Below are positions 2,384 to 31,719 of a stretch of DNA of 64,000 nucleotides, piece by piece. The DNA is taken from assembly GCF_016026235.1 (NCBI RefSeq), contig NZ_CP065613.1; one strand, given 5' to 3'. Position numbers and translations under genes: made by a program. Numbering within the stretch: the stretch's first letter is position 1; each line of letters opens with the position of its first letter. The notes under the pieces are model-generated. The model ran no database searches. It saw nothing but the letters and a program-made list of their open reading frames with translations, and had not been told where the DNA came from. The stretch is from Escherichia coli (lineage in GTDB: Bacteria > Pseudomonadota > Gammaproteobacteria > Enterobacterales > Enterobacteriaceae).

Positions 2384-4281
<1,898 letters not shown>

Positions 4282-4329
4282 TCATTCCAAAAAGTTAAGG
4301 ACGTGGCTTGTCAGACGACGGATGAAGCA

Positions 4330-4450: not shown

Positions 4451-4511
4451 CAAGAAATTAGCCCCCACAAACGGGGCGTTGAATGTAAATTACGCGTTAA
4501 CAGCGCAGAAC

Positions 4512-4988: not shown

Positions 4989-5082
4989 GATTGACTCCGC
5001 AAGTTTGTATTCAAAAACTGCTCAGTGAGAAATGTAAAAACCATGTTAAACATGCCAGTGATGCAAAGGTAGTGCAAGAGCT

Positions 5083-5856: not shown

Positions 5857-5895
5857 TGATACACTGACCGCCTGACGCACTAAGGAACAGCCAAA

Positions 5896-6960: not shown

Positions 6961-6961
6961 G

Positions 6962-6989
6962 AGCCTGGTCCATCAGGCTATTTTATTTG
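6962..6989 (+). terminator. rho-independent terminator after hemE
   Basis: Hairpin AGCCTGgtccatCAGGCT followed by ATTTTATTTG. Confidence 0.6.
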
Positions 6990-7115
6990 CCATTTTGAGG
7001 CCGGGCAGTGCTCAAAATCCTCACGTACTACGTGTACGCTCCGGTTTTTCCGCCTGTCCGGCCTCAAACTGCCTTCAACAATTACGCCTGTTGAACCAGG
7101 CTCTAAGGAGCGATT

Positions 7116-7787
7116 ATGGATCTCGCGTCATTACGCGCTCAACAAATCGAACTGGCTTCTTCTGTGATCCGAGAGGATCGACTCGATAAAGATCCACCGG
7201 ATCTGATCGCCGGAGCCGATGTCGGGTTTGAGCAGGGCGGAGAAGTGACGCGAGCGGCGATGGTGCTGCTGAAATACCCCTCGCTTGAGCTGGTGGAGTA
7301 TAAAGTGGCCCGCATCGCCACCACCATGCCTTACATTCCAGGTTTTCTTTCCTTCCGCGAATATCCTGCGCTGCTGGCAGCGTGGGAGATGCTGTCACAA
7401 AAGCCGGATTTAGTGTTTGTCGATGGTCATGGGATCTCGCATCCTCGCCGTCTTGGCGTTGCCAGCCATTTTGGTTTGCTGGTGGATGTGCCGACCATTG
7501 GCGTAGCGAAAAAACGACTATGCGGTAAATTCGAACCGCTCTCCAGCGAACCGGGCGCGCTGGCCCCACTGATGGATAAAGGCGAGCAGCTGGCCTGGGT
7601 CTGGCGCAGCAAAGCGCGCTGTAACCCGTTGTTTATCGCTACCGGCCATCGGGTCAGCGTGGACAGCGCGCTGGCGTGGGTACAACGCTGCATGAAAGGC
7701 TATCGTCTGCCGGAGCCAACGCGCTGGGCGGACGCGGTGGCCTCGGAACGTCCGGCGTTCGTGCGCTATACAGCAAATCAGCCCTAA
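7116..7787 (+). CDS. nfi: endonuclease V (223 aa)
   Basis: [38 protein letters not shown]... Confidence 0.93.
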
Positions 7788-7829
7788 TTCAGGTAAACTG
7801 CGGGTAATTTCCGTATTTGAGAACTCAAC

Positions 7830-8420
7830 ATGTTACAAAACCCAATTCATCTGCGTCTGGAGCGCCTGGAAAGCTGGCAGCATGTCACTTTCATGGCTTG
7901 CTTATGCGAACGCATGTACCCCAATTACGCCATGTTCTGCCAGCAAACCGGTTTTGGTGATGGGCAAATTTACCGTCGTATTCTCGATCTCATCTGGGAA
8001 ACGCTGACCGTTAAAGACGCAAAAGTAAATTTCGACAGCCAACTGGAGAAATTTGAAGAAGCGATTCCTTCAGCCGACGATTTCGATCTGTACGGTGTTT
8101 ATCCGGCAATCGATGCCTGCGTGGCGTTAAGTGAACTGGTCCATTCGCGTTTGAGTGGTGAAACGCTCGAACACGCGGTAGAAGTGAGTAAGACCTCCAT
8201 CACGACCGTTGTGATGCTGGAAATGACTCAGGCTGGTCGCGAAATGAGCGATGAAGAGCTCAAAGAAAACCCAGCTGTAGAGCAAGAATGGGACATTCAG
8301 TGGGAAATATTCCGACTTTTAGCTGAGTGCGAAGAACGCGATATCGAGCTGATAAAAGGCCTTAGGGCAGACCTGCGTGAGGCGGGTGAGAGCAATATTG
8401 GTATAATTTTTCAGCAATAA
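7830..8420 (+). CDS. yjaG: DUF416-family protein YjaG (196 aa)
   Basis: MLQNPIHLRLERLESWQHVTFMACLCERMYPNYAMF... Confidence 0.9.
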   Translation: MLQNPIHLRLERLESWQHVTFMACLCERMYPNYAMFCQQTGFGDGQIYRRILDLIWETLTVKDAKVNFDSQLEKFEEAIPSADDFDLYGVYPAIDACVALSELVHSRLSGETLEHAVEVSKTSITTVVMLEMTQAGREMSDEELKENPAVEQEWDIQWEIFRLLAECEERDIELIKGLRADLREAGESNIGIIFQQ

Positions 8421-8606
8421 GACCAGAAAACGTGATTTAACGCCTGATTTGTCGTACCTGGAGTCTTCCCTTTCGCCCCCCGTCTGGTCTACATTTGGGG
8501 GGCGAAAAAAAGTGGCTATCGGTGCGTGTATGCAGGAGAGTGCTATTCTGGCATTTCCGTCGCACTCGATGCTTAGCAAGCGATAAACACATTGTAAGGA
8601 TAACTT

Positions 8607-8879
8607 ATGAACAAGACTCAACTGATTGATGTAATTGCAGAGAAAGCAGAACTGTCCAAAACCCAGGCTAAAGCTGCTCTGGAGTCCACTCTGGCTGCAA
8701 TTACTGAGTCTCTGAAAGAAGGCGATGCTGTACAACTGGTTGGTTTCGGTACCTTCAAAGTGAACCACCGCGCTGAGCGTACTGGCCGCAACCCGCAGAC
8801 CGGTAAAGAAATCAAAATTGCCGCAGCTAACGTACCGGCATTTGTTTCTGGCAAGGCACTGAAAGACGCAGTTAAGTAA
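8607..8879 (+). CDS. hupA: DNA-binding protein HU-alpha (90 aa)
   Basis: [90 protein letters not shown]. Confidence 0.96.
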
Positions 8880-8891
8880 GATTGCGTGGCA

Positions 8892-9587
8892 GTGAACAGT
8901 TTTAACGAAGGGGTGGTTTCACCCCTTTTGTCTTTCTGGCGTCGATCATTGATGCTGGCAGGTGCGCTGTTTCTCACTGCCTGTAGCCACAACTCTTCAC
9001 TTCCTCCCTTTACCGCCAGTGGATTTGCTGAAGACCAGGGCGCGGTACGCATCTGGCGAAAAGACAGCGGCGATAATGTGCATCTTCTTGCCGTGTTTAG
9101 CCCGTGGCGCAGTGGCGATACCACGACGCGAGAGTATCGCTGGCAGGGCGATAACCTCACGCTCATCAATATCAATGTTTACAGCAAACCGCCGGTGAAC
9201 ATTCGTGCGCGTTTTGACGATCGCGGTGATCTGAGCTTTATGCAACGTGAATCCGATGGGGAAAAGCAGCAGCTTTCTAACGACCAAATCGATTTATACC
9301 GTTATCGTGCTGATCAGATCCGCCAGATTAGCGATGCCTTACGTCAGGGGAGAGTCGTGCTGCGCCAGGGTCGCTGGCATGCGATGGAACAGACCGTGAC
9401 CACCTGCGAAGGGCAAACCATTAAACCTGATTTAGATTCGCAGGCGATAGCGCATATCGAGCGCCGCCAGAGCCGCTCTTCTGTTGATGTCAGCGTGGCA
9501 TGGCTGGAAGCGCCCGAAGGTTCGCAATTACTGTTGGTGGCAAACTCTGATTTCTGTCGCTGGCAACCCAACGAGAAAACGTTCTGA
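8892..9587 (+). CDS. yjaH: DUF1481-family putative lipoprotein YjaH; GTG at 8892 gives the K-12-style 231 aa product, ATG at 8952 is the biologically more plausible start
   Basis: ORF 8886..9587; MLAGALFLTAC lipobox begins at 8952; the hupA terminator lies inside the longer reading. Confidence 0.85.
   Translation: MNSFNEGVVSPLLSFWRRSLMLAGALFLTACSHNSSLPPFTASGFAEDQGAVRIWRKDSGDNVHLLAVFSPWRSGDTTTREYRWQGDNLTLININVYSKPPVNIRARFDDRGDLSFMQRESDGEKQQLSNDQIDLYRYRADQIRQISDALRQGRVVLRQGRWHAMEQTVTTCEGQTIKPDLDSQAIAHIERRQSRSSVDVSVAWLEAPEGSQLLLVANSDFCRWQPNEKTF
8909..8936 (+). terminator. rho-independent terminator after hupA
   Basis: Hairpin AGGGGTGgtttCACCCCT followed by TTTGTCTTTCT. Confidence 0.65.
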
Positions 9588-9588
9588 T

Positions 9589-10008
9589 TTACCAGTGGCC
9601 CATACCCATATGACCGCCACCACCGCAGCCGCCGTAACCCATTCCGGTACCGCGCGGAATACCCGCTTCAGCCATCGCAATATCTCGTTTCACCCGTAAC
9701 TCATCTAACGACTGACGCAAATTCTCCATCTCTTTGGCGACCGCGTTAATTTTGCTGCTATCCGGTGGGTTCGCGGCTAACAGGGCATTGTATTCATAAC
9801 GCTTCGTCACCAGTTGCTGTTGCAGTGCGCTGCTTTGAGCGTAAAAGTCATTATGGATTTTCTGCCACGCTGTCTGTTGTTCGCTGGTCAAAGGCGCGGC
9901 ATTTTGCTGCCACATACCGTGTCCGCCGTGAGCAAATGCCGATGTCGATCCCATCGCCATTGCTGAAAGCGCCATCATCACCAGGGCAATTTTCGTGTTC
10001 CGTTTCAT
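9589..10008 (-). CDS. zraP: zinc-resistance-associated periplasmic protein ZraP (139 aa, Gly/His-rich C-terminus)
   Basis: MKRNTKIALVMMALSAMAMGSTSAFAHGGHGMWQQ...; ATG at 10008 confirmed; upstream track extension is artefact. Confidence 0.9.
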   Translation of the reverse strand: MKRNTKIALVMMALSAMAMGSTSAFAHGGHGMWQQNAAPLTSEQQTAWQKIHNDFYAQSSALQQQLVTKRYEYNALLAANPPDSSKINAVAKEMENLRQSLDELRVKRDIAMAEAGIPRGTGMGYGGCGGGGHMGMGHW

Positions 10009-10042
10009 GGTTAATCCTCCAGTGGTTGTCTTACTTCGGGTA

Positions 10043-10060
10043 TTGCATCTTCCGTGCCAA
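10043..10060 (-). promoter_or_regulatory. sigma54 (-24/-12) promoter of zraP
   Basis: Reverse strand TTGGCACGGAAGATGCAA: GG and GC elements separated by 10 nt. Confidence 0.7.
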
Positions 10061-10101
10061 CGATGAAACGCTGATATGACGGGTAATCTGGCATGATAAA
10101 C

Positions 10102-10147
10102 GAGTAAAAATGACTCGCCTGCTGCGGGTAGCGAGTCATTTTTACTC
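10102..10147. promoter_or_regulatory. ZraR enhancer: 17-bp perfect inverted repeat between the divergent zraP and zraSR promoters
   Basis: GAGTAAAAATGACTCGC-N12-GCGAGTCATTTTTACTC. Confidence 0.75.
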
Positions 10148-10198
10148 ATTGAAACTTAAGCCTTTGTGTTACAGCGCAGGGTAAGCGCTGATAAAAGA

Positions 10199-10214
10199 TG
10201 GCATGATTTCTGCT
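10199..10214 (+). promoter_or_regulatory. sigma54 promoter of zraSR
   Basis: TGGCATGATTTCTGCT with GG/GC spacing of 10 nt, ~30 nt upstream of the zraS ATG. Confidence 0.65.
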
Positions 10215-10245
10215 GTCAGAAAGGGATGAGCAGGCAAAGAAGAAG

Positions 10246-11622
10246 ATGCGTTTTATGCAACGTTCTAAAGACTCCTTAGCTAAATGGTTAAGCGCGATCC
10301 TCCCCGTGGTCATTGTTGGGCTGGTGGGGCTGTTTGCGGTGACGGTGATTCGCGATTATGGGCGCGAGACTGCCGCCGCCAGACAAACGCTGCTGGAAAA
10401 AGGCAGTGTACTTATTCGCGCTCTTGAATCCGGCTCGCGCGTCGGCATGGGGATGCGCATGCATCATGCGCAGCAGCAGGCCTTACTGGAAGAAATGGCC
10501 GGGCAGCCTGGTGTACGTTGGTTTGCGGTCACGGATGAACAAGGAACAATCGTGATGCATAGCAACTCCGGCATGGTGGGAAAACAGCTTTATTCCCCGC
10601 AGGAAATGCAGCAGTTACATCTGGGAGATGAAGAAGCGTGGCGGCGGATCGATAGCGCAGACGGTGAGCCTGTTCTGGAAATTTATCGCCAGTTTCAACC
10701 GATGTTTGCTGCTGGAATGCACCGGATGCGCCATATGCAGCAGTATGCCGCGACACCACAAGCAATTTTCATCGCTTTCGACGCCAGTAATATTGTGAGT
10801 GCCGAAGATCGTGAGCAGAGAAACACCCTGATTATCCTCTTCGCCCTGGCGACGGTCTTGCTGGCAAGCGTGTTGTCATTCTTCTGGTATCGCCGCTATC
10901 TGCGCTCGCGCCAGCTGTTGCAGGATGAAATGAAGCGCAAAGAGAAGTTGGTGGCACTGGGGCATCTTGCGGCAGGTGTTGCCCACGAAATCCGTAACCC
11001 ACTTTCCTCGATTAAAGGACTGGCGAAATACTTTGCCGAGCGCGCGCCTGCAGGGGGAGAAGCGCATCAACTGGCGCAGGTGATGGCGAAAGAAGCTGAC
11101 CGCTTAAACCGCGTGGTAAGCGAGCTGCTGGAACTGGTTAAGCCAACGCATCTGGCTTTGCAGGCGGTGGATCTCAACACGCTGATTAACCACTCATTAC
11201 AGCTGGTAAGCCAGGATGCAAACAGCCGGGAGATCCAGTTACGCTTTACCGCCAACGACACATTACCGGAAATTCAGGCCGATCCGGACAGGCTGACTCA
11301 GGTCCTGTTGAATCTCTATCTCAATGCTATTCAGGCGATTGGTCAGCATGGCGTGATTAGCGTGACGGCCAGCGAAAGCGGCGCGGGCGTGAAAATCAGC
11401 GTTACCGACAGCGGTAAGGGAATTGCGGCAGATCAGCTTGAAGCCATCTTCACTCCGTACTTCACCACCAAAGCCGAAGGCACCGGATTGGGGCTGGCGG
11501 TCGTGCATAATATTGTTGAACAACACGGTGGTACAATTCAGGTCGCAAGCCAGGAGGGAAAAGGCTCAACGTTCACCCTCTGGCTTCCGGTCAATATTAC
11601 GCGTAAGGACCCACAAGGATGA
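10246..11622 (+). CDS. zraS: sensor histidine kinase ZraS (458 aa)
   Basis: Two TM segments and periplasmic domain, then HisKA (LGHLAAGVAHEIRNPL) and HATPase_c (GTGLGLAVV) motifs. Confidence 0.92.
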   Translation: MRFMQRSKDSLAKWLSAILPVVIVGLVGLFAVTVIRDYGRETAAARQTLLEKGSVLIRALESGSRVGMGMRMHHAQQQALLEEMAGQPGVRWFAVTDEQGTIVMHSNSGMVGKQLYSPQEMQQLHLGDEEAWRRIDSADGEPVLEIYRQFQPMFAAGMHRMRHMQQYAATPQAIFIAFDASNIVSAEDREQRNTLIILFALATVLLASVLSFFWYRRYLRSRQLLQDEMKRKEKLVALGHLAAGVAHEIRNPLSSIKGLAKYFAERAPAGGEAHQLAQVMAKEADRLNRVVSELLELVKPTHLALQAVDLNTLINHSLQLVSQDANSREIQLRFTANDTLPEIQADPDRLTQVLLNLYLNAIQAIGQHGVISVTASESGAGVKISVTDSGKGIAADQLEAIFTPYFTTKAEGTGLGLAVVHNIVEQHGGTIQVASQEGKGSTFTLWLPVNITRKDPQG

Positions 11623-12944
11623 CGCACGATAATATCGATATTCTGGTGGTGGATGATGACATTAGCCACTGCACTATTTTGCAGGCTTTACTGCGCGGCT
11701 GGGGCTATAACGTCGCGCTGGCGAACAGCGGGCGACAGGCGCTGGAGCAGGTGCGGGAACAGGTTTTTGATCTTGTGCTTTGCGATGTGCGAATGGCGGA
11801 GATGGACGGCATCGCCACGCTGAAAGAGATCAAAGCGTTAAACCCGGCGATTCCGGTACTGATTATGACCGCGTACTCCAGCGTCGAGACGGCGGTAGAA
11901 GCGTTGAAAACCGGGGCGCTGGATTATCTCATCAAGCCGCTGGATTTCGATAACCTACAGGCGACGCTGGAAAAGGCGCTCGCGCATACGCACAGTATTG
12001 ATGCTGAAACACCTGCGGTGACTGCCAGCCAGTTCGGTATGGTCGGTAAAAGCCCGGCGATGCAACACCTGCTCAGTGAAATCGCCCTCGTCGCGCCATC
12101 GGAAGCCACGGTGCTGATCCACGGCGATTCCGGCACCGGTAAAGAGCTGGTCGCCAGGGCGATTCACGCCAGTAGCGCACGTAGCGAAAAACCGCTGGTA
12201 ACGCTCAACTGTGCGGCACTCAACGAATCCTTACTGGAATCTGAATTGTTCGGTCACGAAAAAGGGGCGTTTACTGGAGCCGATAAACGCCGGGAAGGGC
12301 GCTTTGTTGAGGCGGACGGCGGCACGCTGTTTCTCGATGAAATTGGCGATATCTCGCCGATGATGCAGGTGCGTCTGCTGCGTGCGATTCAGGAGCGCGA
12401 AGTTCAGCGTGTCGGTAGCAACCAGACTATCTCGGTTGATGTCCGGCTGATTGCGGCGACCCATCGCGATCTTGCCGCAGAGGTGAATGCCGGGCGTTTT
12501 CGCCAGGATCTCTACTATCGCCTGAATGTGGTGGCGATTGAAGTACCATCGCTGCGGCAACGGCGGGAAGATATCCCTCTGCTGGCTGGCCATTTTCTGC
12601 AGCGCTTTGCCGAGCGTAATCGCAAGGCGGTAAAAGGTTTTACGCCCCAGGCGATGGATCTGTTGATTCATTACGACTGGCCGGGAAATATTCGTGAGCT
12701 GGAAAACGCGGTGGAACGGGCAGTGGTGCTGCTGACCGGGGAATATATTTCCGAACGCGAGCTGCCGCTGGCGATTGCCAGTACGCCGATCCCGCTGGGG
12801 CAAAGTCAGGATATTCAGCCGCTGGTGGAAGTGGAAAAAGAGGTGATTCTGGCGGCACTGGAGAAAACGGGCGGCAACAAAACTGAAGCCGCCCGTCAGT
12901 TAGGGATCACGCGTAAAACGTTATTGGCAAAACTGTCGCGTTAG
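11619..12944 (+). CDS. zraR: sigma54-dependent response regulator ZraR (441 aa)
   Basis: Receiver domain, AAA+ sigma54-activator core ([23 protein letters not shown]), C-terminal HTH; overlaps zraS by 4 nt. Confidence 0.93.
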
Positions 12945-14230
12945 TTCTGCTCGCGTTCGATAGCACGCCAGCCGATATCTTTCCGGCAGAAGCAGTCGTC
13001 CCAGTGGATATCGGTCATTAAGGCATAGGCGCGTTTCTGCGCTTCTGCCACGGTATGACCCAGCGCGGTGACGCACAGTACGCGTCCGCCGTTGGTCACT
13101 ACCTGCTCGTCATCCGCCAGTTTTGTGCCCGCGTGGAACACTTTGCCGCCTGCCACTTCTTCCAGCGGCAGGCCGTGGATCACGTCACCGGTGCGGTAAT
13201 CACTCGGATATCCACCCGCAGCCATCACCACGCCGAGAGAAGCGCGTTCATCCCACTCGGACGTTTTCTCGTCCAGTTTGCTTTCACAGGCCGCCAGGCA
13301 GAGCTCAACCAGATCGGACTTCATGCGCAGCATAATCGGCTGGGTTTCCGGATCGCCAAAGCGGCAGTTAAATTCAATAACCTTCGGATTGCCCTGTTTG
13401 TCGATCATCAGGCCCGCGTAGAGAAAACCGGTGTAGGTGTTGCCTTCCGCCGCCATGCCTTTCACGGTTGGCCAGATAATACGTTCCATGGTGCGCTGAT
13501 GAACGTCATCGGTTACTACCGGCGCGGGGGAGTAAGCGCCCATCCCGCCGGTGTTTGGTCCGGTATCTTTATCGCCTACGCGTTTGTGATCCTGGCTGGT
13601 AGCCATCGGCAGCACATGCTCGCCGTCCACCATCACGATAAAGCTCGCTTCTTCGCCATCGAGGAACTCTTCGATAACGATGCGATGACCCGCGTCGCCA
13701 AAAGCGTTGCCCGCCAGCATATCGTGAACAGCCGCTTCCGCTTCTTCCAGCGTCATCGCCACGATAACGCCTTTCCCGGCAGCCAGACCGTCCGCTTTAA
13801 TGACGATTGGCGCGCCTTTCTCACGCAGATACGCCAGCGCAGGTTCTACCTCGGTGAAGTTCTGGTATTCCGCCGTAGGGATCTTATGGCGGGCCAGGAA
13901 ATCTTTGGTAAACGCTTTTGAGCCTTCCAGTTGGGCCGCACCTGCGGTTGGGCCGAAGATTTTCAGCCCGGCGGCGCGGAAGGTATCGACCACGCCTTTC
14001 ACCAGCGGCGCTTCCGGGCCGACGATGGTCAGATCAATCTTTTCGTTTTGTGCGAAATCCAACAGCGCCGGGATATCGGTCACGCCAATAGCAACGTTTT
14101 GCAGCGCGGGTTCCAGCGCAGTGCCTGCATTACCCGGAGCAACAAAAACAGTCTCAACCAGCGGCGACTGGGCCGCTTTCCAGGCCAGCGCGTGCTCGCG
14201 CCCGCCGTTACCAATCACTAATACTTTCAT
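12941..14230 (-). CDS. purD: phosphoribosylamine-glycine ligase PurD (429 aa)
   Basis: MKVLVIGNGGREHALAWKAAQSPLVETVFVAPGNAGTA... Confidence 0.95.
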   Translation of the reverse strand: MKVLVIGNGGREHALAWKAAQSPLVETVFVAPGNAGTALEPALQNVAIGVTDIPALLDFAQNEKIDLTIVGPEAPLVKGVVDTFRAAGLKIFGPTAGAAQLEGSKAFTKDFLARHKIPTAEYQNFTEVEPALAYLREKGAPIVIKADGLAAGKGVIVAMTLEEAEAAVHDMLAGNAFGDAGHRIVIEEFLDGEEASFIVMVDGEHVLPMATSQDHKRVGDKDTGPNTGGMGAYSPAPVVTDDVHQRTMERIIWPTVKGMAAEGNTYTGFLYAGLMIDKQGNPKVIEFNCRFGDPETQPIMLRMKSDLVELCLAACESKLDEKTSEWDERASLGVVMAAGGYPSDYRTGDVIHGLPLEEVAGGKVFHAGTKLADDEQVVTNGGRVLCVTALGHTVAEAQKRAYALMTDIHWDDCFCRKDIGWRAIEREQN

Positions 14231-14241
14231 CTATTGCTCCA

Positions 14242-15831
14242 TTAATGGCGGAAGTGGCGCATGTCGGTGAAGAGCATCGCAATACCGTGCTCGTCGGCGG
14301 CGGCAATCACTTCGTCATCACGGATGGAACCGCCAGGCTGGATTACGCAGGTCACGCCCGCAGCGGCGGCGGCATCAATACCGTCGCGGAACGGGAAGAA
14401 CGCGTCAGAAGCCATCGAGGAACCTTTCACTTCCAGGCCTTCATCGGCAGCTTTAATACCGGCGATTTTCGCGGAGTACACGCGGCTCATCTGGCCCGCG
14501 CCAATACCGATGGTCATATTGTTTTTGGCATAGACGATAGCATTGGATTTCACGAACTTCGCCACTTTCCAGCAGAACAGCGCATCGCGCAGTTCCTGTT
14601 CGGTCGGCTGACGTTGGGTGACGACGCGCAGTTCTTCCGCACCGACCATCCCCAGGTCACGATCCTGAACCAGCAGACCGCCGTTCACGCGTTTGAAATC
14701 AAGACCCGGAACACGCTCGCCCCACTGACCGCAGGTCAGAACGCGTACGTTCTGCTTGGCGGCGGTGATTTTCAGGGCTTCTTCGCTGGCGGAAGGCGCA
14801 ATAATCACTTCGACAAACTGACGAGAAATGATGGCCTGTGCGGTTTCCGCATCTAGCTCGCGGTTAAAGGCAATGATGCCGCCGAATGCGGAGGTTGGGT
14901 CGGTTTTGTACGCGCGATCGTAAGCATCAAGAATGGAATTGCCGATAGCTACACCGCAAGGGTTGGCGTGCTTCACAATCACACATGCCGGCTCGGCGAA
15001 CTCTTTCACGCACTCCAGCGCCGCATCAGTATCGGCGATGTTGTTATAAGAGAGGGCTTTACCCTGAACCTGGGTTGCGGTAGCAACGGAGGCTTCTTTC
15101 ACATTCTCTTCTATATAGAAGGCAGCCTGCTGGTGGCTGTTCTCGCCGTAACGCATATCCTGCTTCTTAATGAAGTTCAGGTTCAGCGTGCGTGGGAAGC
15201 GACCGGCGGCTTCTTTGCTTTCACCGTGGTAAGCCGGAACCATGCTGCCGAAGTAGTTGGCAATCATGCTGTCGTAGGCGGCAGTGTGTTCGAAGGCTTT
15301 GATGGCGAGGTCGAAACGGGTTGCAAGCGTCAGCGATCCTTCGTTGGCATCCATCTCTTTAATAATGGCGTCGTAGTCGCTACTCTTCACCACGATTGCG
15401 ACATCTTTATGGTTCTTGGCGGCGGAGCGCACCATCGTTGGGCCGCCGATATCGATGTTCTCAACCGCATCTTCCAGCGAGCAACCTTCACGGGCCACAG
15501 TCTGGGCGAACGGATACAGGTTAACAACCACCATATCGATAGGCTGGATCTGATGTTCTTCCATAATGGCATCGTCCTGGCCGCGACGGCCCAGAATGCC
15601 ACCATGTACTTTCGGATGCAGGGTCTTCACGCGTCCATCCATCATCTCCGGGAAACCGGTGTAATCGGAAACTTCGGTTACCGGCAGACCTTTTTCTGCT
15701 AACAGACGGGCAGTGCCCCCTGTAGACAGCAGCTCCACACCGCGTGCGGAAAGTGCCTGGGCGAATTCGACGATACCGGCTTTGTCAGAAACACTGAGCA
15801 GAGCGCGGCGGACTGGACGACGTTGTTGCAT
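14242..15831 (-). CDS. purH: bifunctional AICAR transformylase / IMP cyclohydrolase PurH (529 aa)
   Basis: [44 protein letters not shown]... Confidence 0.95.
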
Positions 15832-15938
15832 GGTAAATCCCCTGGATTTGACTATTACAGAGAGCGTTAGCTGAATTTTTCGCGAAAAACTCAGCTAACG
15901 CCCCTAACGGGGCATCTTTATTTTTCGCCCGCATTGTA

Positions 15939-15954
15939 ACGAAAACGTTTGCGC
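15939..15954. promoter_or_regulatory. PurR operator (pur box) of the purHD promoter
   Basis: ACGAAAACGTTTGCGC, a close match to the pur-box palindrome, ~110 nt upstream of purH. Confidence 0.7.
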
Positions 15955-16125
15955 AACGCTCGCGAATTTTTCTCTTTCAATGGTGATCACAATTTTGACA
16001 GTGGTTACCGTGGGAAAAATACAGAAATTACATTGATGATTGTGGATAACTCTGTGCGTAAAAAGGTATAAAGCGGGGTTTTGCTGGGGAATGCAGCAGT
16101 CAGTCATTTTTCTGCAATTTTTCTA

Positions 16126-16263
16126 TTGCGGCCTGCGGAGAACTCCCTATAATGCGCCTCCATCGACACGGCGGATGTGAATCACTTCACACAAACAGCC
16201 GGTTCGGTTGAAGAGAAAAATTCTGAAATTCAGGGTTGACTCTGAAAGAGGAAAGCGTAATAT
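16126..16263 (+). promoter_or_regulatory. rRNA operon tandem promoters P1 and P2 with A/T-rich upstream region
   Basis: P1 -35 TTGCGG (16126) / -10 TATAAT (16148) + GCGCC discriminator; P2 -35 TTGACT (16236) / -10 TAATAT (16258). Confidence 0.8.
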
Positions 16264-16303
16264 ACGCCACCTCGCGACAGTGAGCTGAAAGCCGCGTCGC
16301 AAC

Positions 16304-16315
16304 TGCTCTTTAACA
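16304..16315 (+). promoter_or_regulatory. rrn leader boxA antitermination element
   Basis: TGCTCTTTAACA in the leader upstream of 16S. Confidence 0.8.
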
Positions 16316-16447
16316 ATTTATCAGACAATCTGTGTGGGCACTCGAAGATACGGATTCTTAACGTCGCAAGACGAAAAATGAATACCAAGTCTCAAGAGTG
16401 AACACGTAATTCATTACGAAGTTTAATTCTTTGAGCATCAAACTTTT

Positions 16448-17989
<1,542 letters not shown>

Positions 17990-18074: not shown

Positions 18075-18150
18075 GTCCCCTTCGTCTAGAGGCCCAGGAC
18101 ACCGCCCTTTCACGGCGGTAACAGGGGTTCGAATCCCCTAGGGGACGCCA
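18075..18150 (+). tRNA. gltV: tRNA-Glu (UUC) in the 16S-23S spacer
   Basis: GTCCCCTTCGTCTAGAGGCCCAGGACACCGCCCTTTCACGGCGGTAACAGGGGTTCGAATCCCCTAGGGGACGCCA. Confidence 0.95.
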
Positions 18151-18343: not shown

Positions 18344-21243
<2,900 letters not shown>

Positions 21244-21335: not shown

Positions 21336-21455
21336 TGCCTGGCGGCCTTAGCGCGGTGGTCCCACCTGACCCCATGCCGAACTCAGAAGTGAAACGCCGT
21401 AGCGCCGATGGTAGTGTGGGGTCTCCCCATGCGAGAGTAGGGAACTGCCAGGCAT
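21336..21455 (+). rRNA. rrfE: 5S ribosomal RNA
   Basis: TGCCTGGCGGCCTTAGCGCGGTGGTCCCACCTGACCCCATGCC...GGGAACTGCCAGGCAT, 120 nt. Confidence 0.97.
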
Positions 21456-21467
21456 CAAATTAAGCAG

Positions 21468-21495
21468 AAGGCCATCCTGACGGATGGCCTTTTTG
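21468..21495 (+). terminator. rrn operon T1 rho-independent terminator
   Basis: Hairpin AAGGCCATCCtgaCGGATGGCCTT followed by TTTT. Confidence 0.85.
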
Positions 21496-21514
21496 CATTG
21501 GCGCAGAAAAAAAT

Positions 21515-21556
21515 GCCGGATGCGACGCTGGCGCGTCTTATCCAGCTTACGCAGGC
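21515..21556. repeat. REP (palindromic unit) element
   Basis: GCCGGATGCGACGCTGGCGCGTCTTATCCAGC REP-like palindrome between the rrn terminator and the yjaB stop. Confidence 0.7.
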
Positions 21557-21571
21557 ACGATAGGGGGCAGC

Positions 21572-22015
21572 TTATTCCCCCACATACGCCAGATTCAGCA
21601 ACGGATACGGTTTCCCCAAATCGTCCACCTCAGAGCGTCCCGTAACCTTAAAACCCACCTTCTTATAGAACCCAACCGCCTGCTCATTTTGCTCATTAAC
21701 GTTGGTTGTCAGTTCCGGGGCCATTGAGAGCGCATGCTTCACCAGCATCCGGCCCACGCCGCAGCCGCGCACATCAGGATCGATAAACAGCGCATCCATA
21801 TGCTGCCCACTTAACAACATAAACCCAACCGGCTGTTCCCGCTCATTGACCGCGACCCACAACGGTGCTTCCGGCAGAAAGGAACGAACCAGCTCCTCCA
21901 GCTCGGCCCGATACTCTGCTGATAAAAAATCGTGGGTGGCATCGACAGATCGACACCAAATCGCAACGAGTTCCTCCCCTTCCTCATGCCGTGAGCGGCG
22001 AATACTAATAACCAT
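21572..22015 (-). CDS. yjaB: GNAT-family N-acetyltransferase YjaB (147 aa)
   Basis: MVISIRRSRHEEGEELVAIWCRSVDATHDFLSAEYRAELEELV... Confidence 0.9.
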   Translation of the reverse strand: MVISIRRSRHEEGEELVAIWCRSVDATHDFLSAEYRAELEELVRSFLPEAPLWVAVNEREQPVGFMLLSGQHMDALFIDPDVRGCGVGRMLVKHALSMAPELTTNVNEQNEQAVGFYKKVGFKVTGRSEVDDLGKPYPLLNLAYVGE

Positions 22016-22120
22016 TTTCTCTCCTTTTAGTCATTCTTATATTCTAACGTAGTCTTTTCCTTGAAACTTTCTCACCTTCAACATGCAGGCTCGACATTGG
22101 CAAATTTTCTGGTTATCTTC

Positions 22121-22156
22121 AGCTATCTGGATGTCTAAACGTATAAGCGTATGTAG
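22121..22156 (+). promoter_or_regulatory. metA promoter region with tandem MetJ met-box-like octamers
   Basis: AGCTATCTGGATGTCTAAACGTATAAGCGTATGTAG contains repeated AGACGTCT-like octamers upstream of metA. Confidence 0.5.
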
Positions 22157-22171
22157 TGAGGTAATCAGGTT

Positions 22172-23101
22172 ATGCCGATTCGTGTGCCGGACGAGCTACC
22201 CGCCGTCAATTTCTTGCGTGAAGAAAACGTCTTTGTGATGACAACTTCTCGTGCGTCTGGTCAGGAAATTCGTCCACTTAAGGTTCTGATCCTTAACCTG
22301 ATGCCGAAGAAGATTGAAACTGAAAATCAGTTTCTGCGCCTGCTTTCAAACTCACCTTTGCAGGTCGATATTCAGCTGTTGCGCATCGATTCCCGTGAAT
22401 CGCGCAACACGCCCGCAGAGCATCTGAACAACTTCTACTGTAACTTTGAAGATATTCAGGAACAGAACTTTGACGGTCTGATTGTAACCGGTGCGCCGCT
22501 GGGCCTGGTGGAGTTTAATGATGTCGCTTACTGGCCGCAGATCAAACAGGTGCTGGAGTGGTCGAAAGATCACGTCACCTCGACGCTGTTTGTCTGCTGG
22601 GCGGTACAGGCAGCGCTCAATATCCTCTACGGCATTCCTAAGCAAACTCGCACCGACAAACTCTCTGGCGTTTACGAGCATCATATTCTCCATCCTCATG
22701 CGCTTCTGACGCGTGGCTTTGATGATTCATTCCTGGCACCGCATTCGCGCTATGCTGACTTTCCGGCAGCGTTGATTCGTGATTACACCGATCTGGAAAT
22801 TCTGGCAGAGACGGAAGAAGGGGATGCATATCTGTTTGCCAGTAAAGATAAGCGCATTGCCTTTGTGACGGGCCATCCCGAATATGATGCGCAAACGCTG
22901 GCGCAGGAATATTTCCGCGATGTGGAAGCCGGACTAGACCCGGAAGTACCGTATAACTATTTCCCGCACAATGATCCGCAAAACAAACCGCGAGCGAGCT
23001 GGCGTAGTCACGGTAATTTGCTGTTTACCAACTGGCTCAACTATTACGTCTACCAGATCACGCCATACGATCTACGGCACATGAATCCAACGCTGGATTA
23101 A
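22172..23101 (+). CDS. metA: homoserine O-succinyltransferase MetA (309 aa)
   Basis: [45 protein letters not shown]... Confidence 0.95.
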
Positions 23102-23145
23102 TCTTCTGTGATAGTCGATCGTTAAGCGATTCAGCACCTTACCTC

Positions 23146-23170
23146 AGGCACCTTCGGGTGCCTTTTTTAT
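23146..23170 (+). terminator. rho-independent terminator after metA
   Basis: Hairpin AGGCACCttcgGGTGCCT followed by TTTTTT. Confidence 0.75.
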
Positions 23171-23246
23171 TTCCGAAACACACCTCAGTAGGTGAATAAA
23201 TTTTATTCATATTATTATCAATAAGTTATCAAGTATTTTTAATTAA

Positions 23247-23269
23247 AATGGAAATTGTTTTTGATTTTG
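23247..23269. promoter_or_regulatory. IclR operator in the aceBAK promoter
   Basis: AATGGAAATTGTTTTTGATTTTG (TGGAAA-containing IclR-box-like site) in the A/T-rich region upstream of aceB. Confidence 0.6.
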
Positions 23270-23369
23270 ATTTTTAAATGAGTAGTCTTAGTTGTGCTGA
23301 ACGAAAAGCGCACAACGATCCTTCGTTCACAGTGGGGAAGTTTTCGGATCCATGACGAGGAGCTGCACG

Positions 23370-24971
23370 ATGACTGAACAGGCAACAACAACCGATGAAC
23401 TGGCTTTCATAAGGCCGTATGGCGAGCAGGAGAAGCAAATTCTTACTGCCGAAGCGGTAGAATTTCTGACTGAGCTGGTGACGCATTTTACGCCACAACG
23501 CAATAAACTTCTGGCAGCGCGCATTCAGCAGCAGCAAGATATTGATAACGGAACGTTGCCTGATTTTATTTCGGAAACAGCTTCCATTCGTGATGCTGAC
23601 TGGAAAATTCGCGGGATTCCTGCGGACTTAGAAGATCGCCGCGTAGAGATTACCGGACCCGTAGAGCGCAAGATGGTGATCAACGCGCTCAACGCCAATG
23701 TGAAAGTCTTTATGGCCGATTTCGAAGATTCACTGGCACCAGACTGGAACAAAGTGATCGACGGGCAAATTAACCTGCGTGATGCGGTTAACGGCACCAT
23801 CAGTTACACCAATGAAGCAGGCAAAATTTACCAGCTCAAGCCCAATCCAGCGGTTTTGATTTGTCGGGTACGCGGTCTGCACTTGCCGGAAAAACATGTC
23901 ACCTGGCGTGGTGAGGCAATCCCCGGCAGCCTGTTTGATTTTGCGCTCTATTTCTTCCACAACTATCAGGCACTGTTGGCAAAGGGCAGTGGTCCCTATT
24001 TCTATCTGCCGAAAACCCAGTCCTGGCAGGAAGCGGCCTGGTGGAGCGAAGTCTTCAGCTATGCAGAAGATCGCTTTAATCTGCCGCGCGGCACCATCAA
24101 GGCGACGTTGCTGATTGAAACGCTGCCCGCCGTGTTCCAGATGGATGAAATCCTTCACGCGCTGCGTGACCATATTGTTGGTCTGAACTGCGGTCGTTGG
24201 GATTACATCTTCAGCTATATCAAAACGTTGAAAAACTATCCCGATCGCGTCCTGCCAGACAGACAGGCAGTGACGATGGATAAACCATTCCTGAATGCTT
24301 ACTCACGCCTGTTGATTAAAACCTGCCATAAACGCGGTGCTTTTGCGATGGGCGGCATGGCGGCGTTTATTCCGAGCAAAGATGAAGAGCACAATAACCA
24401 GGTGCTCAACAAAGTAAAAGCGGATAAATCGCTGGAAGCCAATAACGGTCACGATGGCACATGGATCGCTCACCCAGGCCTTGCGGATACGGCAATGGCG
24501 GTATTCAACGACATTCTCGGCTCCCGTAAAAATCAGCTTGAAGTGATGCGCGAACAAGACGCGCCGATTACTGCCGATCAGCTACTGGCACCTTGTGACG
24601 GTGAACGCACCGAAGAAGGTATGCGCGCAAATATTCGCGTAGCCGTGCAGTACATCGAAGCGTGGATCTCTGGCAACGGCTGTGTGCCGATTTATGGCCT
24701 GATGGAAGATGCGGCGACGGCTGAAATTTCCCGTACCTCAATCTGGCAGTGGATCCATCATCAAAAAATGTTGAGCAATGGCAAACCGGTAACTAAAGCC
24801 TTGTTCCGCCAGATGCTGGGCGAAGAGATGAAAGTCATTGCCAGCGAACTGGGCGAAGAACGTTTCTCCCAGGGGCGTTTTGACGATGCCGCACGCTTGA
24901 TGGAACAGATCACCACTTCCGATGAGTTAATTGATTTCCTGACCCTGCCAGGCTACCGCCTGTTAGCGTAA
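23370..24971 (+). CDS. aceB: malate synthase A (533 aa)
   Basis: [40 protein letters not shown]...; track start 23352 is an upstream in-frame ATG. Confidence 0.95.
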
Positions 24972-25000
24972 ACCACCACATAACTATGGAGCATCTGCAC

Positions 25001-26305
25001 ATGAAAACCCGTACACAACAAATTGAAGAATTACAGAAAGAGTGGACTCAACCGCGTTGGGAAGGCATTACTCGCCCATACAGCGCGGAAGATGTGGTGA
25101 AATTACGCGGTTCAGTCAATCCTGAATGCACCCTGGCGCAACTGGGCGCGGCGAAAATGTGGCGTCTGCTGCATGGCGAGTCGAAAAAAGGCTACATCAA
25201 CAGCCTCGGTGCACTGACTGGCGGTCAGGCGCTGCAACAGGCGAAAGCGGGTATTGAAGCAGTCTATCTGTCGGGATGGCAGGTAGCGGCGGACGCTAAC
25301 CTGGCGGCCAGCATGTATCCGGATCAGTCGCTCTATCCGGCAAACTCGGTGCCAGCTGTGGTGGAGCGGATCAACAATACTTTCCGCCGTGCGGATCAGA
25401 TCCAATGGTCCGCGGGCATTGAGCCGGGCGATCCGCGCTATGTCGATTACTTCCTGCCGATCGTTGCCGATGCGGAAGCCGGTTTTGGCGGTGTCCTGAA
25501 TGCCTTTGAACTGATGAAAGCGATGATTGAAGCCGGTGCAGCGGCAGTTCACTTCGAAGATCAGCTGGCGTCAGTGAAGAAATGCGGTCACATGGGCGGC
25601 AAAGTTTTGGTGCCAACTCAAGAAGCTATTCAGAAACTGGTCGCGGCGCGTCTGGCAGCTGACGTGACGGGCGTTCCAACCCTACTGGTTGCTCGTACCG
25701 ATGCCGATGCAGCGGATCTGATCACCTCCGATTGCGACCCGTATGACAGCGAATTTATTACCGGCGAGCGTACCAGTGAAGGCTTCTTCCGTACTCATGC
25801 GGGCATTGGGCAAGCGATCAGCCGTGGCCTGGCGTATGCGCCATATGCTGACCTGGTCTGGTGTGAAACCTCCACGCCGGATCTGGAACTGGCGCGTCGC
25901 TTTGCACAAGCTATCCACGCGAAATATCCGGGCAAACTGCTGGCTTATAACTGCTCGCCGTCGTTCAACTGGCAGAAAAACCTCGACGACAAAACTATTG
26001 CCAGCTTCCAGCAGCAGCTGTCGGATATGGGCTACAAGTTCCAGTTCATCACCCTGGCAGGTATCCACAGCATGTGGTTCAACATGTTTGACCTGGCAAA
26101 CGCCTATGCCCAGGGCGAGGGTATGAAGCACTACGTTGAGAAAGTGCAGCAGCCGGAATTTGCCGCCGCGAAAGATGGCTATACCTTCGTATCTCACCAG
26201 CAGGAAGTGGGTACAGGTTACTTCGATAAAGTGACGACTATTATTCAGGGCGGCACGTCTTCAGTCACCGCGCTGACCGGCTCCACTGAAGAATCGCAGT
26301 TCTAA
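25001..26305 (+). CDS. aceA: isocitrate lyase (434 aa)
   Basis: [38 protein letters not shown]...; active-site KKCGH present. Confidence 0.95.
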
Positions 26306-26326
26306 GCAACCTACAAACGTTGCTGA

Positions 26327-26462
26327 CTGTAGGCCGGATAAGGCATTTACGCCGCATCCGGCAATCGGTGCACGATGCCTGATGCGACGCTTGCGCGTCT
26401 TATCATGCCTACAACCGTTGCCGAACGTAGGCTGGATAAGGCGTTTACGCCGCATCCGGCAA
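26327..26462. repeat. BIME: cluster of three REP palindromic units between aceA and aceK
   Basis: Three copies of GCCGGATAAGGCRTTYACGCCGCATCCGGC-type palindromes in alternating orientation. Confidence 0.85.
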
Positions 26463-26488
26463 TTCTCTGCTCCTGATGAGGGCGCTAA

Positions 26489-30379
<3,891 letters not shown>

Positions 30380-30695
30380 TTAAATATCTCATTGTTTATT
30401 GATGTCTTAAATTTTAACTATCAGAACAGTGAAAAAATTTAATATGATTACAACTAAAGAAATATCATAAATCGCTCAATCTCATAATGCAGCCGTAAAA
30501 GTTTCGGTGGAATGAGATCTTGCGATTTTGTTAATAATTAAGTGGTTTGATGTTTAAAAATAATGCTGAGTTAATAAAAGTGTGTGAAGTGTATGACATT
30601 AAGTTATTTTGGCGTCAATGCGATTAACAGACACCCTTATTCTATTGCCACTCAGGTATGATGGGCAGAATATTGCCTCTGCCCGCCAGAAAAAG

Positions 30696-31520
30696 TCAGC
30701 GCATTCCACCGTACGCCAGCGTCACTTCCTTCGCCGCTTTGATCACCATCGCGCCAAACTCGGTCACGCGGTCATCGGTAATACGTGAAATCGGTCCGGA
30801 AATAGAAATTGCGGCAAACGGTTCACGGTGCTCATCGAAAATACACGCTGCAAGGCAACGTAGCCCCAGTGCATGTTCCTCATCGTCAAATGAATAACCC
30901 CGTTTGCGCGTTTGGGCGAGATCTTCTTTTAAATGCACAGGAGACACCAGCGTTGCGTGGGTATAGGCATGTAACCCTTTGCGGTGCAGCAGCTTCGTCA
31001 CCTGTTCTTCGCTCAGTTGGGCTAAAAAGGCTTTACCCGCACCGGAAGCGTGCATCGGCAATTTACCGCCGATAGGCGCGGACATTCGCATCAGATGCGT
31101 ACACTGTACCTGGTCGATAATAATCGCTTCGTGATCGCTTTGATCAAGCACCGCCATATTGACCGTTTCGCCAGACTCTTCCATTAAATTGCGCAGGATA
31201 GGGTGAACAATCGCTAACAAATTACGGCTCTGGAGAAAGCTGCTGCCGACCATAAAGGCATGTGCGCCGATTGCCCAATGTCCCAGTTCGCCGACCTGAC
31301 GCACGAAACCCTGCTGTTGCATCGTGGTTAGCAGGCGGTGGGTCGTGGAATTGGGTAACCCGGCTTGTTGCGCCAGCTCTGTGAGTGCCACGCTGCCATT
31401 GGATTCGGCAATCCACTCCAGTAATTTCAGGCCACGCGTTAAAGACTGAACCTGTCCAGTCGCTGGTGCGGTGGCAACGGCGGGTTTTCTGCCGCGTTTC
31501 GCGGGAATGGGTGCGACCAT
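30696..31520 (-). CDS. iclR: glyoxylate-shunt transcriptional repressor IclR (274 aa)
   Basis: MVAPIPAKRGRKPAVATAPATGQVQSLTRGLKLLEWIAESNGSVALTELAQQAGLP...; ATG at 31520. Confidence 0.93.
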   Translation of the reverse strand: MVAPIPAKRGRKPAVATAPATGQVQSLTRGLKLLEWIAESNGSVALTELAQQAGLPNSTTHRLLTTMQQQGFVRQVGELGHWAIGAHAFMVGSSFLQSRNLLAIVHPILRNLMEESGETVNMAVLDQSDHEAIIIDQVQCTHLMRMSAPIGGKLPMHASGAGKAFLAQLSEEQVTKLLHRKGLHAYTHATLVSPVHLKEDLAQTRKRGYSFDDEEHALGLRCLAACIFDEHREPFAAISISGPISRITDDRVTEFGAMVIKAAKEVTLAYGGMR

Positions 31521-31719
31521 GACAGTCTCCTTTTTCTGTATCGTGGAAATCATTTTCATTTTTATTGTTAGCTAATGCAATAGTTGCTGAACTGATCCGA
31601 TGAGTTAATGTTGAACAAATCTCATGTTGCGTGGTGGTCGCTTTTACCACAGATGCGTTTATGCCAGTATGGTTTGTTGAATTTTTATTAAATCTGGGTT
31701 GAGCGTGTCGGGAGCAAGT

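What the first reader, a model, noticed from the sequence alone, without database searches (positions are those of the whole stretch)
21456..21571. yjaA is absent between the 5S rRNA and yjaB
Only 116 bp separate the end of the 5S rRNA (21455) from the yjaB stop (21572), and they contain just the rrn T1 terminator and one REP element. In K-12 this interval holds yjaA (~127 codons). yjaA is a classical Clermont marker; yjaA-negative with arpA present (even decayed) argues against phylogroup B2 or F and is consistent with A, B1 or D/E.
Basis: partly seen in the sequence, partly recalled or inferred. Interest (0 to 1): 0.35.

Follow-up and report, generated by a model that had tools for sequence, protein, structure and literature searches.

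The report
Common yjaA-negative E. coli allele
This E. coli strain lacks the small gene yjaA between its rrnE ribosomal RNA operon and yjaB, a long-known presence/absence difference shared by about half of complete E. coli genomes and used for routine strain typing, so the finding is correct but ordinary.

Summary
The 5S rRNA of rrnE ends at 21455 and the yjaB stop codon starts at 21572. The 116 bp between them hold one terminator hairpin and one REP element. K-12 has 520 bp here, including the 127-codon yjaA. No yjaA-like sequence exists anywhere in the 64-kb window. None was found either on the chromosome of FDAARGOS_943, a near-identical E. coli genome.

This is the ordinary yjaA-negative allele. 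2809 of 5426 complete E. coli genomes carry it and 2594 carry yjaA.

It is a replacement, not a clean deletion of the K-12 sequence. The terminator is the rrnB-T2 type, not T1. The terminator, spacer and REP together are 98.9% identical to the 3' flank of rrnA in K-12.

yjaA occupies the same site in Pectobacterium, Kosakonia, Phytobacter, Citrobacter youngae and Salmonella salamae. It is missing there in other Salmonella, Citrobacter and Klebsiella. The polymorphism is therefore old and recurrent.

The phylogroup reading holds. The arpA primers match exactly, and arpA itself is a pseudogene. The proxy genome is chuA-positive. That refines the call to D or E, and to D by the E-specific arpA test.

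Already known; low interest.

The parts
21336..21455 (+). 5S rRNA (rrfE), the last gene of the rrnE operon
   Evidence: Rfam RF00001 at 21338-21453, 93.2 bits. The 120-nt extent comes from alignment to the K-12 rrfE annotation.
21456..21571 (.). The whole 116-bp rrfE-yjaB intergenic gap: the yjaA-negative allele
   Evidence: Alignment to K-12. The same junction occurs in 2809 of 5426 complete E. coli genomes. Alignment with O157, E. coli C, NT1F10, E1V33 and MOD1-EC7003 is.
21467..21497 (+). Intrinsic terminator of rrnE: 11-bp stem, 4-nt loop (21467-21492), then a T-run. The sequence is identical to the K-12 rrnB/rrnA T2 hairpin.
   Evidence: Fold; -22.8 kcal/mol; identity to rrnB T2 and rrnA T2. 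The simple consensus scan did not flag it.
21515..21550 (+). A single REP (repetitive extragenic palindromic) element
   Evidence: 2 mismatches to the REP consensus; 4 copies in the window against 0 expected. Stem-loop of -17.1 kcal/mol. Sub-threshold Rfam naRNA4 hit of 30.1 bits.
21551..21571 (.). 21-nt spacer specific to the yjaA-negative rrnE allele, lying between the REP and the yjaB stop. Homology to the rrnA flank ends at 21550.
   Evidence: Alignment A3.
21572..22015 (-). yjaB, an intact GNAT acetyltransferase of 147 aa. Its last codon differs from K-12 (..YVGE* here, ..YVGA* in K-12); this is the right edge of the polymorphic segment.
   Evidence: ORF; NCBIfam PRK10514 at 275 bits; Pfam GNAT domains; alignment.
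27815..28214 (+). In-silico arpA amplicon of the Clermont quadruplex (AceK.f/ArpA1.r), 400 bp with exact primer matches
   Evidence: primer sequences verified in PMC4322292 Table 1.
28194..30379 (-). arpA (annotated espL4 by PGAP), a pseudogene with an internal stop near codon 433 and a frameshift near codon 609
   Evidence: tblastn and blastn against K-12 arpA; PGAP note 'frameshifted; internal stop' in FDAARGOS_943.

Best explanation
The window carries the common yjaA-negative haplotype of the E. coli rrnE-yjaB junction.

Shown: the strain has no yjaA in the window, and its near-identical relative has none on its chromosome. In place of the 520-bp K-12 segment (rrnE-specific terminator, yjaA and its flanks) there is a 116-bp module. 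The module consists of an rrnB-T2-type intrinsic terminator hairpin, a 22-nt spacer, one REP element and a 21-nt spacer that abuts the yjaB stop codon.

Inferred function: the hairpin ends rrnE transcription. On the other strand, the REP stem-loop lies 22-57 nt past the yjaB stop, where REPs typically stabilise the 3' end of an upstream mRNA. rrnE and yjaB are convergent.

Inferred history: both haplotypes are old. yjaA is the ancestral occupant of the site just downstream of this rrn operon and upstream of metA across the Enterobacterales. It has been lost or replaced repeatedly. Within Escherichia the yjaA-negative module has a single origin. It is paralogous to the rrnA 3' flank, and it is passed among lineages by homologous recombination anchored in the conserved rRNA operon and in yjaB-metA. 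This accounts for the patchy distribution of yjaA across phylogroups that the Clermont scheme exploits.

For typing, the window reads arpA+ yjaA-. Together with chuA+ in the proxy genome this gives phylogroup D or E, and D by the E-specific arpA allele test.
For: - Coordinates and content of the gap.
- K-12 layout and the replacement boundaries (left about 10 nt after the 5S, right in the last yjaB codon).
- No yjaA in the window.
- No yjaA on the FDAARGOS_943 chromosome, which is about 100% identical to the window over 1-16400, 21456-31600 and 39001-64000.
- Population frequency: 2809 genomes with the contiguous yjaA-less junction against 2594 with the yjaA segment. These total 5403 of 5426. 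One search gives an independent count of about 2607 yjaA places.
- The same module occurs in O157, E. coli C, NT1F10, and Escherichia sp. E1V33 and MOD1-EC7003.
- The hairpin is identical to rrnB T2.
- The hairpin-spacer-REP stretch is 98.9% identical to the K-12 rrnA flank, and homology stops exactly at the REP end.
- yjaA is syntenic (5S-terminator-yjaA-[yjaB]-metA-aceB) in Kosakonia and Phytobacter. The same holds for Salmonella salamae, Pectobacterium versatile, Citrobacter youngae and GCA_002421005.
- yjaA-less junctions occur in S. arizonae and diarizonae, Citrobacter spp., Klebsiella spp. and Pseudocitrobacter.
- Evidence of recombination: in E. whittamii Sa2BVA5, the stretch from 5S to the start of metA is about 99% identical to K-12, then identity drops to about 92%.
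- Typing.
Against: - Terminator and REP functions are inferred from sequence and folding only. The simple terminator scan did not flag the hairpin.
- The whole-genome statements (no yjaA elsewhere, chuA present) rest on a proxy genome. It differs from the window by a few SNPs and an 85-bp indel, and it is not the window's own genome.
- The megablast test would miss a yjaA copy below about 85% identity. Plasmid records of the proxy genome were not examined separately.
- The direction of evolution is not settled. The yjaA-less form is the one seen in most sampled Salmonella, Citrobacter and Klebsiella, so insertion or transfer of yjaA into some lineages cannot be excluded.
- The D-versus-E call is a PCR-logic inference. 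metA-aceB is closest (99.4%) to O157:H7-type genomes, so whole-genome placement might differ.
Confidence: 0.9

Rival explanations
1. The yjaA-less junction is an assembly artefact. A collapse or mis-join at the repeated rRNA operon attached the 5S and flank of another rrn operon (for example rrnA) to yjaB.
For: The first 95 nt of the gap are 98.9% identical to the rrnA 3' flank of K-12. rRNA operons are classic sites of mis-assembly.
Against: The identical junction, including the 21 nt between the REP and the yjaB stop that rrnA lacks, is present in 2809 complete genomes. It also lies on unique-sequence draft contigs of Escherichia sp. E1V33 and MOD1-EC7003 that read through from yjaB into the terminator or 5S. 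The yjaA-positive and yjaA-negative counts are complementary. The proxy genome has no orphan yjaA elsewhere.
Confidence: 0.02
2. This lineage recently underwent a simple deletion of yjaA from a K-12-like yjaA-positive ancestor.
For: K-12 and many A, B2 and C strains have yjaA at exactly this site. yjaA appears ancestral at the site across Enterobacterales.
Against: The gap is not a subset of the K-12 sequence. The terminator hairpin differs, a REP and spacer absent from K-12 rrnE are present, and the last yjaB codon differs. No yjaA remnant is detectable. The same module, with ordinary allelic divergence, occurs in other E. coli lineages and in the Escherichia sp. representatives E1V33 and MOD1-EC7003. 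The allele therefore long predates this strain.
Confidence: 0.04
3. The yjaA-less arrangement is the ancestral state in Escherichia and Enterobacteriaceae. On this view yjaA was acquired by insertion or homologous import in some lineages (A, B2, C, clades I/II), so the window simply retains the primitive state.
For: yjaA-less junctions with the same T2-type hairpin plus REP occur in Salmonella arizonae and diarizonae, several Citrobacter, Klebsiella and Pseudocitrobacter. The E. coli yjaA-positive allele has a derived, unique terminator hairpin. E. whittamii shows that yjaA can be imported with its flanks.
Against: yjaA sits at the same site, directly after the 5S terminator and before (yjaB-)metA-aceB, in Pectobacterium (a different family). 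It does so also in Kosakonia, Phytobacter, Citrobacter youngae, Salmonella salamae and another enterobacterial genome. Amino-acid identities of 47-72% scale roughly with host distance. That pattern is hard to obtain by independent insertions.
Confidence: 0.2

Closest known systems
Clermont yjaA marker, negative state (triplex PCR 2000; quadruplex PCR 2013; ClermonTyping in silico)
   Same: The locus is exactly this one. The primers yjaA.1b/2b lie inside K-12 yjaA (seen against the primer table) and have no site in the window. The combined arpA+ yjaA- profile is read as in the published scheme.
   Different: Nothing differs in kind. The work here only adds the sequence anatomy of the null allele, which the PCR scheme does not describe.
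K-12 MG1655 rrfE-yjaA-yjaB interval (b4010-b4012)
   Same: The flanks are orthologous: rrnE on the left and yjaB-metA-aceBAK-arpA-iclR-metH on the right, at about 98% nucleotide identity.
   Different: K-12 has 520 bp with a different terminator hairpin (CCCCGG..CCGGGG) and the 127-aa yjaA. The window has 116 bp with a T2-type hairpin and a REP, and yjaB ends in E* instead of A*.
3' flank of rrnA (and T2 of rrnB) in E. coli K-12
   Same: The hairpin is identical to rrnB T2. The hairpin, 22-nt spacer and REP are 98.9% identical to the rrnA flank. Some yjaA-negative rrnE alleles (EH08-18-36) also carry the T1 plus pseudo-5S segment, as rrnA and rrnB do.
   Different: The window allele lacks T1 and the pseudo-5S repeat. 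After the REP the sequence continues into yjaB instead of mobB.
REP/BIME elements of enterobacteria
   Same: It is a 36-nt imperfect palindrome matching the REP consensus. It is extragenic, sits between convergent genes, and other copies occur in the window.
   Different: It is a single REP, not a BIME pair. It has two departures from the consensus in the 3' arm (CCAGCTTAC against CMGGCCTAC).

Membership tests
yjaA-negative allele of the E. coli rrnE-yjaB junction (Clermont yjaA-) | No yjaA gene and no yjaA primer sites | tested here: met
   tblastn and blastn against the window find nothing better than E=0.095. The primers yjaA.1b/2b and the 2000-version primers have no site with 4 or fewer mismatches.
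yjaA-negative allele of the E. coli rrnE-yjaB junction (Clermont yjaA-) | Flanks orthologous to K-12 rrfE and yjaB, so this is the true yjaA site | tested here: met
   Rfam finds a 16S-tRNA-23S-5S operon. yjaB, metA, aceBAK, arpA, iclR and metH follow in K-12 order.
yjaA-negative allele of the E. coli rrnE-yjaB junction (Clermont yjaA-) | The same junction sequence recurs in other E. coli | tested here: met
   2809 of 5426 complete genomes cover at least 80% of a query spanning the junction; alignment.
yjaA-negative allele of the E. coli rrnE-yjaB junction (Clermont yjaA-) | yjaA absent from the rest of the genome | tested here: inconclusive
   Testable only on the proxy FDAARGOS_943 chromosome. 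The chimeric metA-aceB plus reverse-complemented yjaA query gave 1 place there and 2 places in yjaA-positive controls. The window's own genome is not available.
YjaA family stress response protein (NCBIfam NF041448) | An ORF scoring above the family cut-off | tested here: not met
   K-12 YjaA scores 177 bits against a cut-off of 125. No homologous ORF exists in the window.
Intrinsic (Rho-independent) terminator, rrnB T2 type | G+C-rich hairpin followed by a T-run, immediately downstream of the 5S | tested here: met
   11-bp stem at 21467-21492 followed by TTTTTGCATT, -22.8 kcal/mol. It is identical to K-12 rrnB T2 and rrnA T2. The simple scan did not list it.
Intrinsic (Rho-independent) terminator, rrnB T2 type | Actually terminates rrnE transcription | not testable with these tools
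   This needs 3'-end mapping (Term-seq or RNA-seq).
REP element | Match to the REP consensus palindrome in an extragenic position, as part of a multi-copy family | tested here: met
   21515-21550 has 2 mismatches. Three more copies lie at 26377, 49464 and 59135, with 0 expected by chance. The fold is -17.1 kcal/mol.
Clermont phylogroup D/E profile (arpA+ chuA+ yjaA-) | arpA amplicon of 400 bp | tested here: met
   AceK.f and ArpA1.r match exactly at 27815-28214.
Clermont phylogroup D/E profile (arpA+ chuA+ yjaA-) | chuA amplicon of 288 bp | tested here: inconclusive
   chuA lies outside the window. It is present with exact primer sites (a 288-bp product) in the proxy genome FDAARGOS_943.
Clermont phylogroup E (allele-specific arpA test) | ArpAgpE.f and ArpAgpE.r anneal with matched 3' ends | tested here: not met
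   Both primers have a 3'-terminal mismatch in the window (..GCT against ..GCC..GAA against ..GAG), identical to the non-E strain K-12. By PCR logic this gives D rather than E.

The most novel reading that the evidence does not exclude
The yjaA-negative allele may not be a deletion scar. It may be a transplanted rrn 3'-flank module: the T2 hairpin, spacer and REP shared at 98.9% identity with rrnA. On this reading, ectopic exchange or gene conversion between rRNA operons reaches about 100 nt past the 5S and can overwrite yjaA. Together with homologous import anchored in the rRNA operon, as seen in E. whittamii, this would explain two things. yjaA, ancestral at this site across Enterobacterales, is lost again and again. 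And the Clermont yjaA marker is homoplasious across phylogroups and species.
Probability: 0.3. Interest if true: 0.25.

Novelty: already known. Interest (0 to 1): 0.08.

Why it matters
The practical value is limited to strain typing. The window is arpA+ yjaA-, and chuA+ by proxy, so the strain falls in Clermont group D or E rather than A, B1, B2 or F. It lacks the non-essential gene annotated as a YjaA-family stress-response protein.

The null allele has a defined and conserved architecture that is related to the rrnA flank. yjaA presence/absence is also an old polymorphism that crosses species boundaries. These points form a small mechanistic footnote explaining why this widely used marker does not track phylogeny perfectly. 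They do not change any accepted view.

Tried and rejected
- I suspected from memory that this terminator-REP-yjaB-end arrangement is carried on plasmids or Tn9-like elements. A blastn search of 72,556 plasmid records found only mislabelled chromosomes and chromosomal fragments, so the idea was dropped.
- The simple terminator scan did not call the obvious hairpin. I relied instead on folding and on its identity to rrnB T2.
- An Rfam search of the gap with permissive thresholds gave only a sub-threshold REP-derived hit (naRNA4, 30 bits against a gathering score of 59.5) and noise. There is no hidden RNA gene.
- The 53-aa ORF at 21484-21645 overlaps the REP and lies antisense to yjaB. It was not pursued, as it is almost certainly spurious.
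- A count using the 135-nt gap alone gave only 1065 full-length matches, because megablast fragments short divergent alleles. The anchored 401-nt query and the complementary yjaA count are the better estimates.
- The literature search did not reveal what strain FDAARGOS_943 is.
- TspE4.C2 was not typed. It does not change a '+ + - ?' assignment.
- Testing concerted evolution of the rrnA and rrnE flanks within one genome was uninformative. In E. coli C the rrnE hairpin loop is inverted but the rrnA loop is not, so there is no evidence of recent homogenisation in that strain.

Full report
**What is at the coordinates**

Rfam finds a complete rRNA operon on the plus strand. It comprises 16S at 16448-17989, a tRNA at 18075-18147, 23S at 18344-21243 and 5S at 21338-21453. 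In register with the 120-nt K-12 rrfE annotation, the mature 5S spans 21336-21455.

The next gene is a 147-aa ORF on the minus strand at 21572-22015. It is YjaB: NCBIfam equivalog PRK10514 at 275 bits, with Pfam GNAT domains. Beyond it come metA, aceB, aceA, aceK, arpA, iclR and metH in K-12 order.

**Content of the gap**

Folding shows an 11-bp G+C-rich stem with a 4-nt loop at 21467-21492, followed by TTTTTGCATT. The hairpin folds at -22.8 kcal/mol.

At 21515-21550 there is a REP element with 2 mismatches to the consensus. Three further copies lie at 26377, 49464 and 59135, and none are expected by chance. A permissive Rfam search gives only a sub-threshold REP-derived hit.

The simple terminator scan missed the hairpin. 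The K-12 rrnB region shows T1 to be a different hairpin, and the window sequence ACTGCCAGGCATCAAATTAAGCAGAAGGCCATCCTGACGGATGGCCTTTTTGC is identical to rrnB T2.

**Comparison with K-12**

MG1655 has rrfE at 4213040-4213159, yjaA (127 aa) at 4213234-4213617 and yjaB at 4213680-4214123, which leaves 520 bp between 5S and yjaB. The pairwise alignment shows a replacement rather than a nested deletion.

- The sequences are collinear up to CATCAAATTA, about 10 nt after the 5S.
- They then differ in the terminator hairpin. K-12 has CCCCGG..CCGGGG at -22.0 kcal/mol.
- They become collinear again only inside the last codon of yjaB. The protein ends ..YVGE* here and ..YVGA* in K-12.

No remnant of yjaA is detectable in the gap or anywhere else in the 64-kb window. 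The best E-values are 0.63 for protein and 0.095 for DNA, and all four yjaA primers lack a site.

**How common the allele is**

A 401-nt query spanning the junction is covered at 80% or more in 2809 of 5426 complete E. coli genomes. The 520-bp K-12 yjaA segment is found in 2594 genomes. The two sets are essentially complementary, totalling 5403 of 5426.

The null allele aligns well with those of O157, E. coli C, a pig isolate, and the Escherichia sp. genomes E1V33 and MOD1-EC7003. One strain, EH08-18-36, additionally has a 168-bp T1 plus pseudo-5S segment. This is the ordinary yjaA-negative state, not a peculiarity of this strain and not an assembly artefact.

**Identity of the strain and the rest of its genome**

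The window is about 100% identical to E. coli FDAARGOS_943 (NZ_CP065615.1) over 1-16400, 21456-31600 and 39001-64000. The next-best genomes are only 98.1-99.2% identical. The window differs from FDAARGOS_943 by a few SNPs and an 85-bp length difference, so I treat that genome as a proxy only.

To test for yjaA elsewhere, I used a chimeric query: metA-aceB of the window joined to the reverse complement of K-12 yjaA. It gave a single place in FDAARGOS_943 and two places in yjaA-positive controls such as S88 and K-12 derivatives. The proxy chromosome therefore has no yjaA above about 85% identity.

**Typing**

Primer sequences and profiles were checked in PMC4322292, and the scheme in PMC6113867.

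- AceK.f and ArpA1.r match exactly and give a 400-bp product at 27815-28214. The strain is arpA-positive.
- arpA itself is a pseudogene. It is 98.5% identical to K-12 arpA, with a stop near codon 433 and a frameshift near codon 609. PGAP marks it 'frameshifted; internal stop'.
- The proxy genome carries chuA between dctR and yhiD, with exact chuA.1b and chuA.2 sites. The profile is '+ + - ?', which is D or E.
- Both E-specific arpA primers have 3'-terminal mismatches in the window, just as in K-12. By PCR logic this gives D.
- metA-aceB is nevertheless closest (99.4%) to O157:H7-type genomes. Whole-genome placement should have the last word.

**Origin of the polymorphism**

A scan of species-representative genomes with YjaB, followed by local searches, showed yjaA-less junctions in several genera. 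Each has 5S, a T2-type hairpin and REP-like sequence running into the yjaB end. They occur in Salmonella arizonae and diarizonae, several Citrobacter, Klebsiella and Pseudocitrobacter.

The same scan showed yjaA between 5S and yjaB in Kosakonia and Phytobacter, at 65-66% amino-acid identity. A protein search and context look-ups extended this list:

- Salmonella salamae has yjaA-yjaB-metA.
- Citrobacter youngae has yjaA-metA.
- Pectobacterium versatile has 23S-5S-terminator-yjaA-metA-aceB-aceA, without yjaB.

I infer that yjaA is the ancestral occupant of this site and has been lost or replaced repeatedly. The opposite polarity is not excluded.

In E. whittamii Sa2BVA5 the stretch from 5S through yjaA and yjaB to the start of metA is about 99% identical to K-12, after which identity falls to about 92%. 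This is direct evidence that the segment moves by homologous recombination.

**Relation to rrnA**

The first 95 nt of the gap (T2 hairpin, 22-nt spacer and REP) are 98.9% identical to the 3' flank of rrnA in K-12. In a joint alignment the homology ends exactly at the end of the REP. After that point rrnA continues to mobB and the window continues to yjaB.

The null allele is thus a conserved rrn-flank module rather than a deletion scar. Whether it reached rrnE by ectopic exchange with another rrn operon is a hypothesis I could not test. In E. coli C the two flanks differ in the hairpin loop, so there is no sign of recent homogenisation in that strain.

**Verdict**

The feature is a textbook marker polymorphism: already known and of low interest. 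The small additions are the anatomy of the null allele and the deep, recurrent history of yjaA loss.

Noticed in passing
window 28194-30379 (-): arpA (called espL4 by PGAP) is a pseudogene with a stop near codon 433 and a frameshift near codon 609. It is otherwise 98.5% identical to K-12 arpA, and the Clermont arpA primer sites are intact.
   Followed up: yes
L006 (Escherichia whittamii Sa2BVA5), 5S to start of metA: About 1.2 kb covering 5S, yjaA and yjaB is about 99% identical to K-12. The adjoining metA-aceB is only about 92% identical. This looks like an import of an E. coli phylogroup-A-like segment into another Escherichia species, anchored in the rRNA operon.
   Followed up: partly
L048 (Salmonella salamae) against L021 and L024 (S. 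diarizonae, S. arizonae): Salmonella shows the same yjaA presence/absence polymorphism at the same site as E. coli.
   Followed up: partly
L052 (Pectobacterium versatile), L053 (Citrobacter youngae): yjaA lies directly between the 5S terminator and metA, with no yjaB. yjaB is therefore also a variable occupant of this junction.
   Followed up: no
L044 (E. coli EH08-18-36), rrnE 3' flank: This yjaA-negative allele carries an extra 168 bp (a T1 hairpin plus a pseudo-5S end), as in rrnA and rrnB. The extra segment is bounded by 18-nt direct repeats (AACTGCCAGGCATCAAAT) that could mediate its loss or gain.
   Followed up: partly
L046 (E. coli C), rrnE terminator: The 4-nt loop and closing pair of the T2 hairpin are inverted (CCGTCAGG against CCTGACGG) relative to all other alleles and to the strain's own rrnA flank.
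   Followed up: no
L041/L042 (FDAARGOS_943, proxy genome): Several pseudogenes were seen in about 100 kb inspected: glpG (internal stop), shuT (frameshift), hutW (internal stop) and a truncated pstS-like gene next to an IS2. This hints at an unusually decayed or IS-rich lineage, and complete genomes closer than about 99% are very few.
   Followed up: no
window 21349-21352 (5S rRNA): The 5S has GGCGGCCTTAGCG where K-12 has GGCGGCAGTAGCG. This short stretch varies among enterobacterial 5S genes in the fetched loci, and it accounts for the 2 mismatches between the window and FDAARGOS_943 in this region.
   Followed up: no
window 39001-64000 against FDAARGOS_943 3318193-3343277: The match is split into two pieces, with the proxy genome 85 bp longer. 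This is an indel between the window's genome and its closest relative.
   Followed up: no
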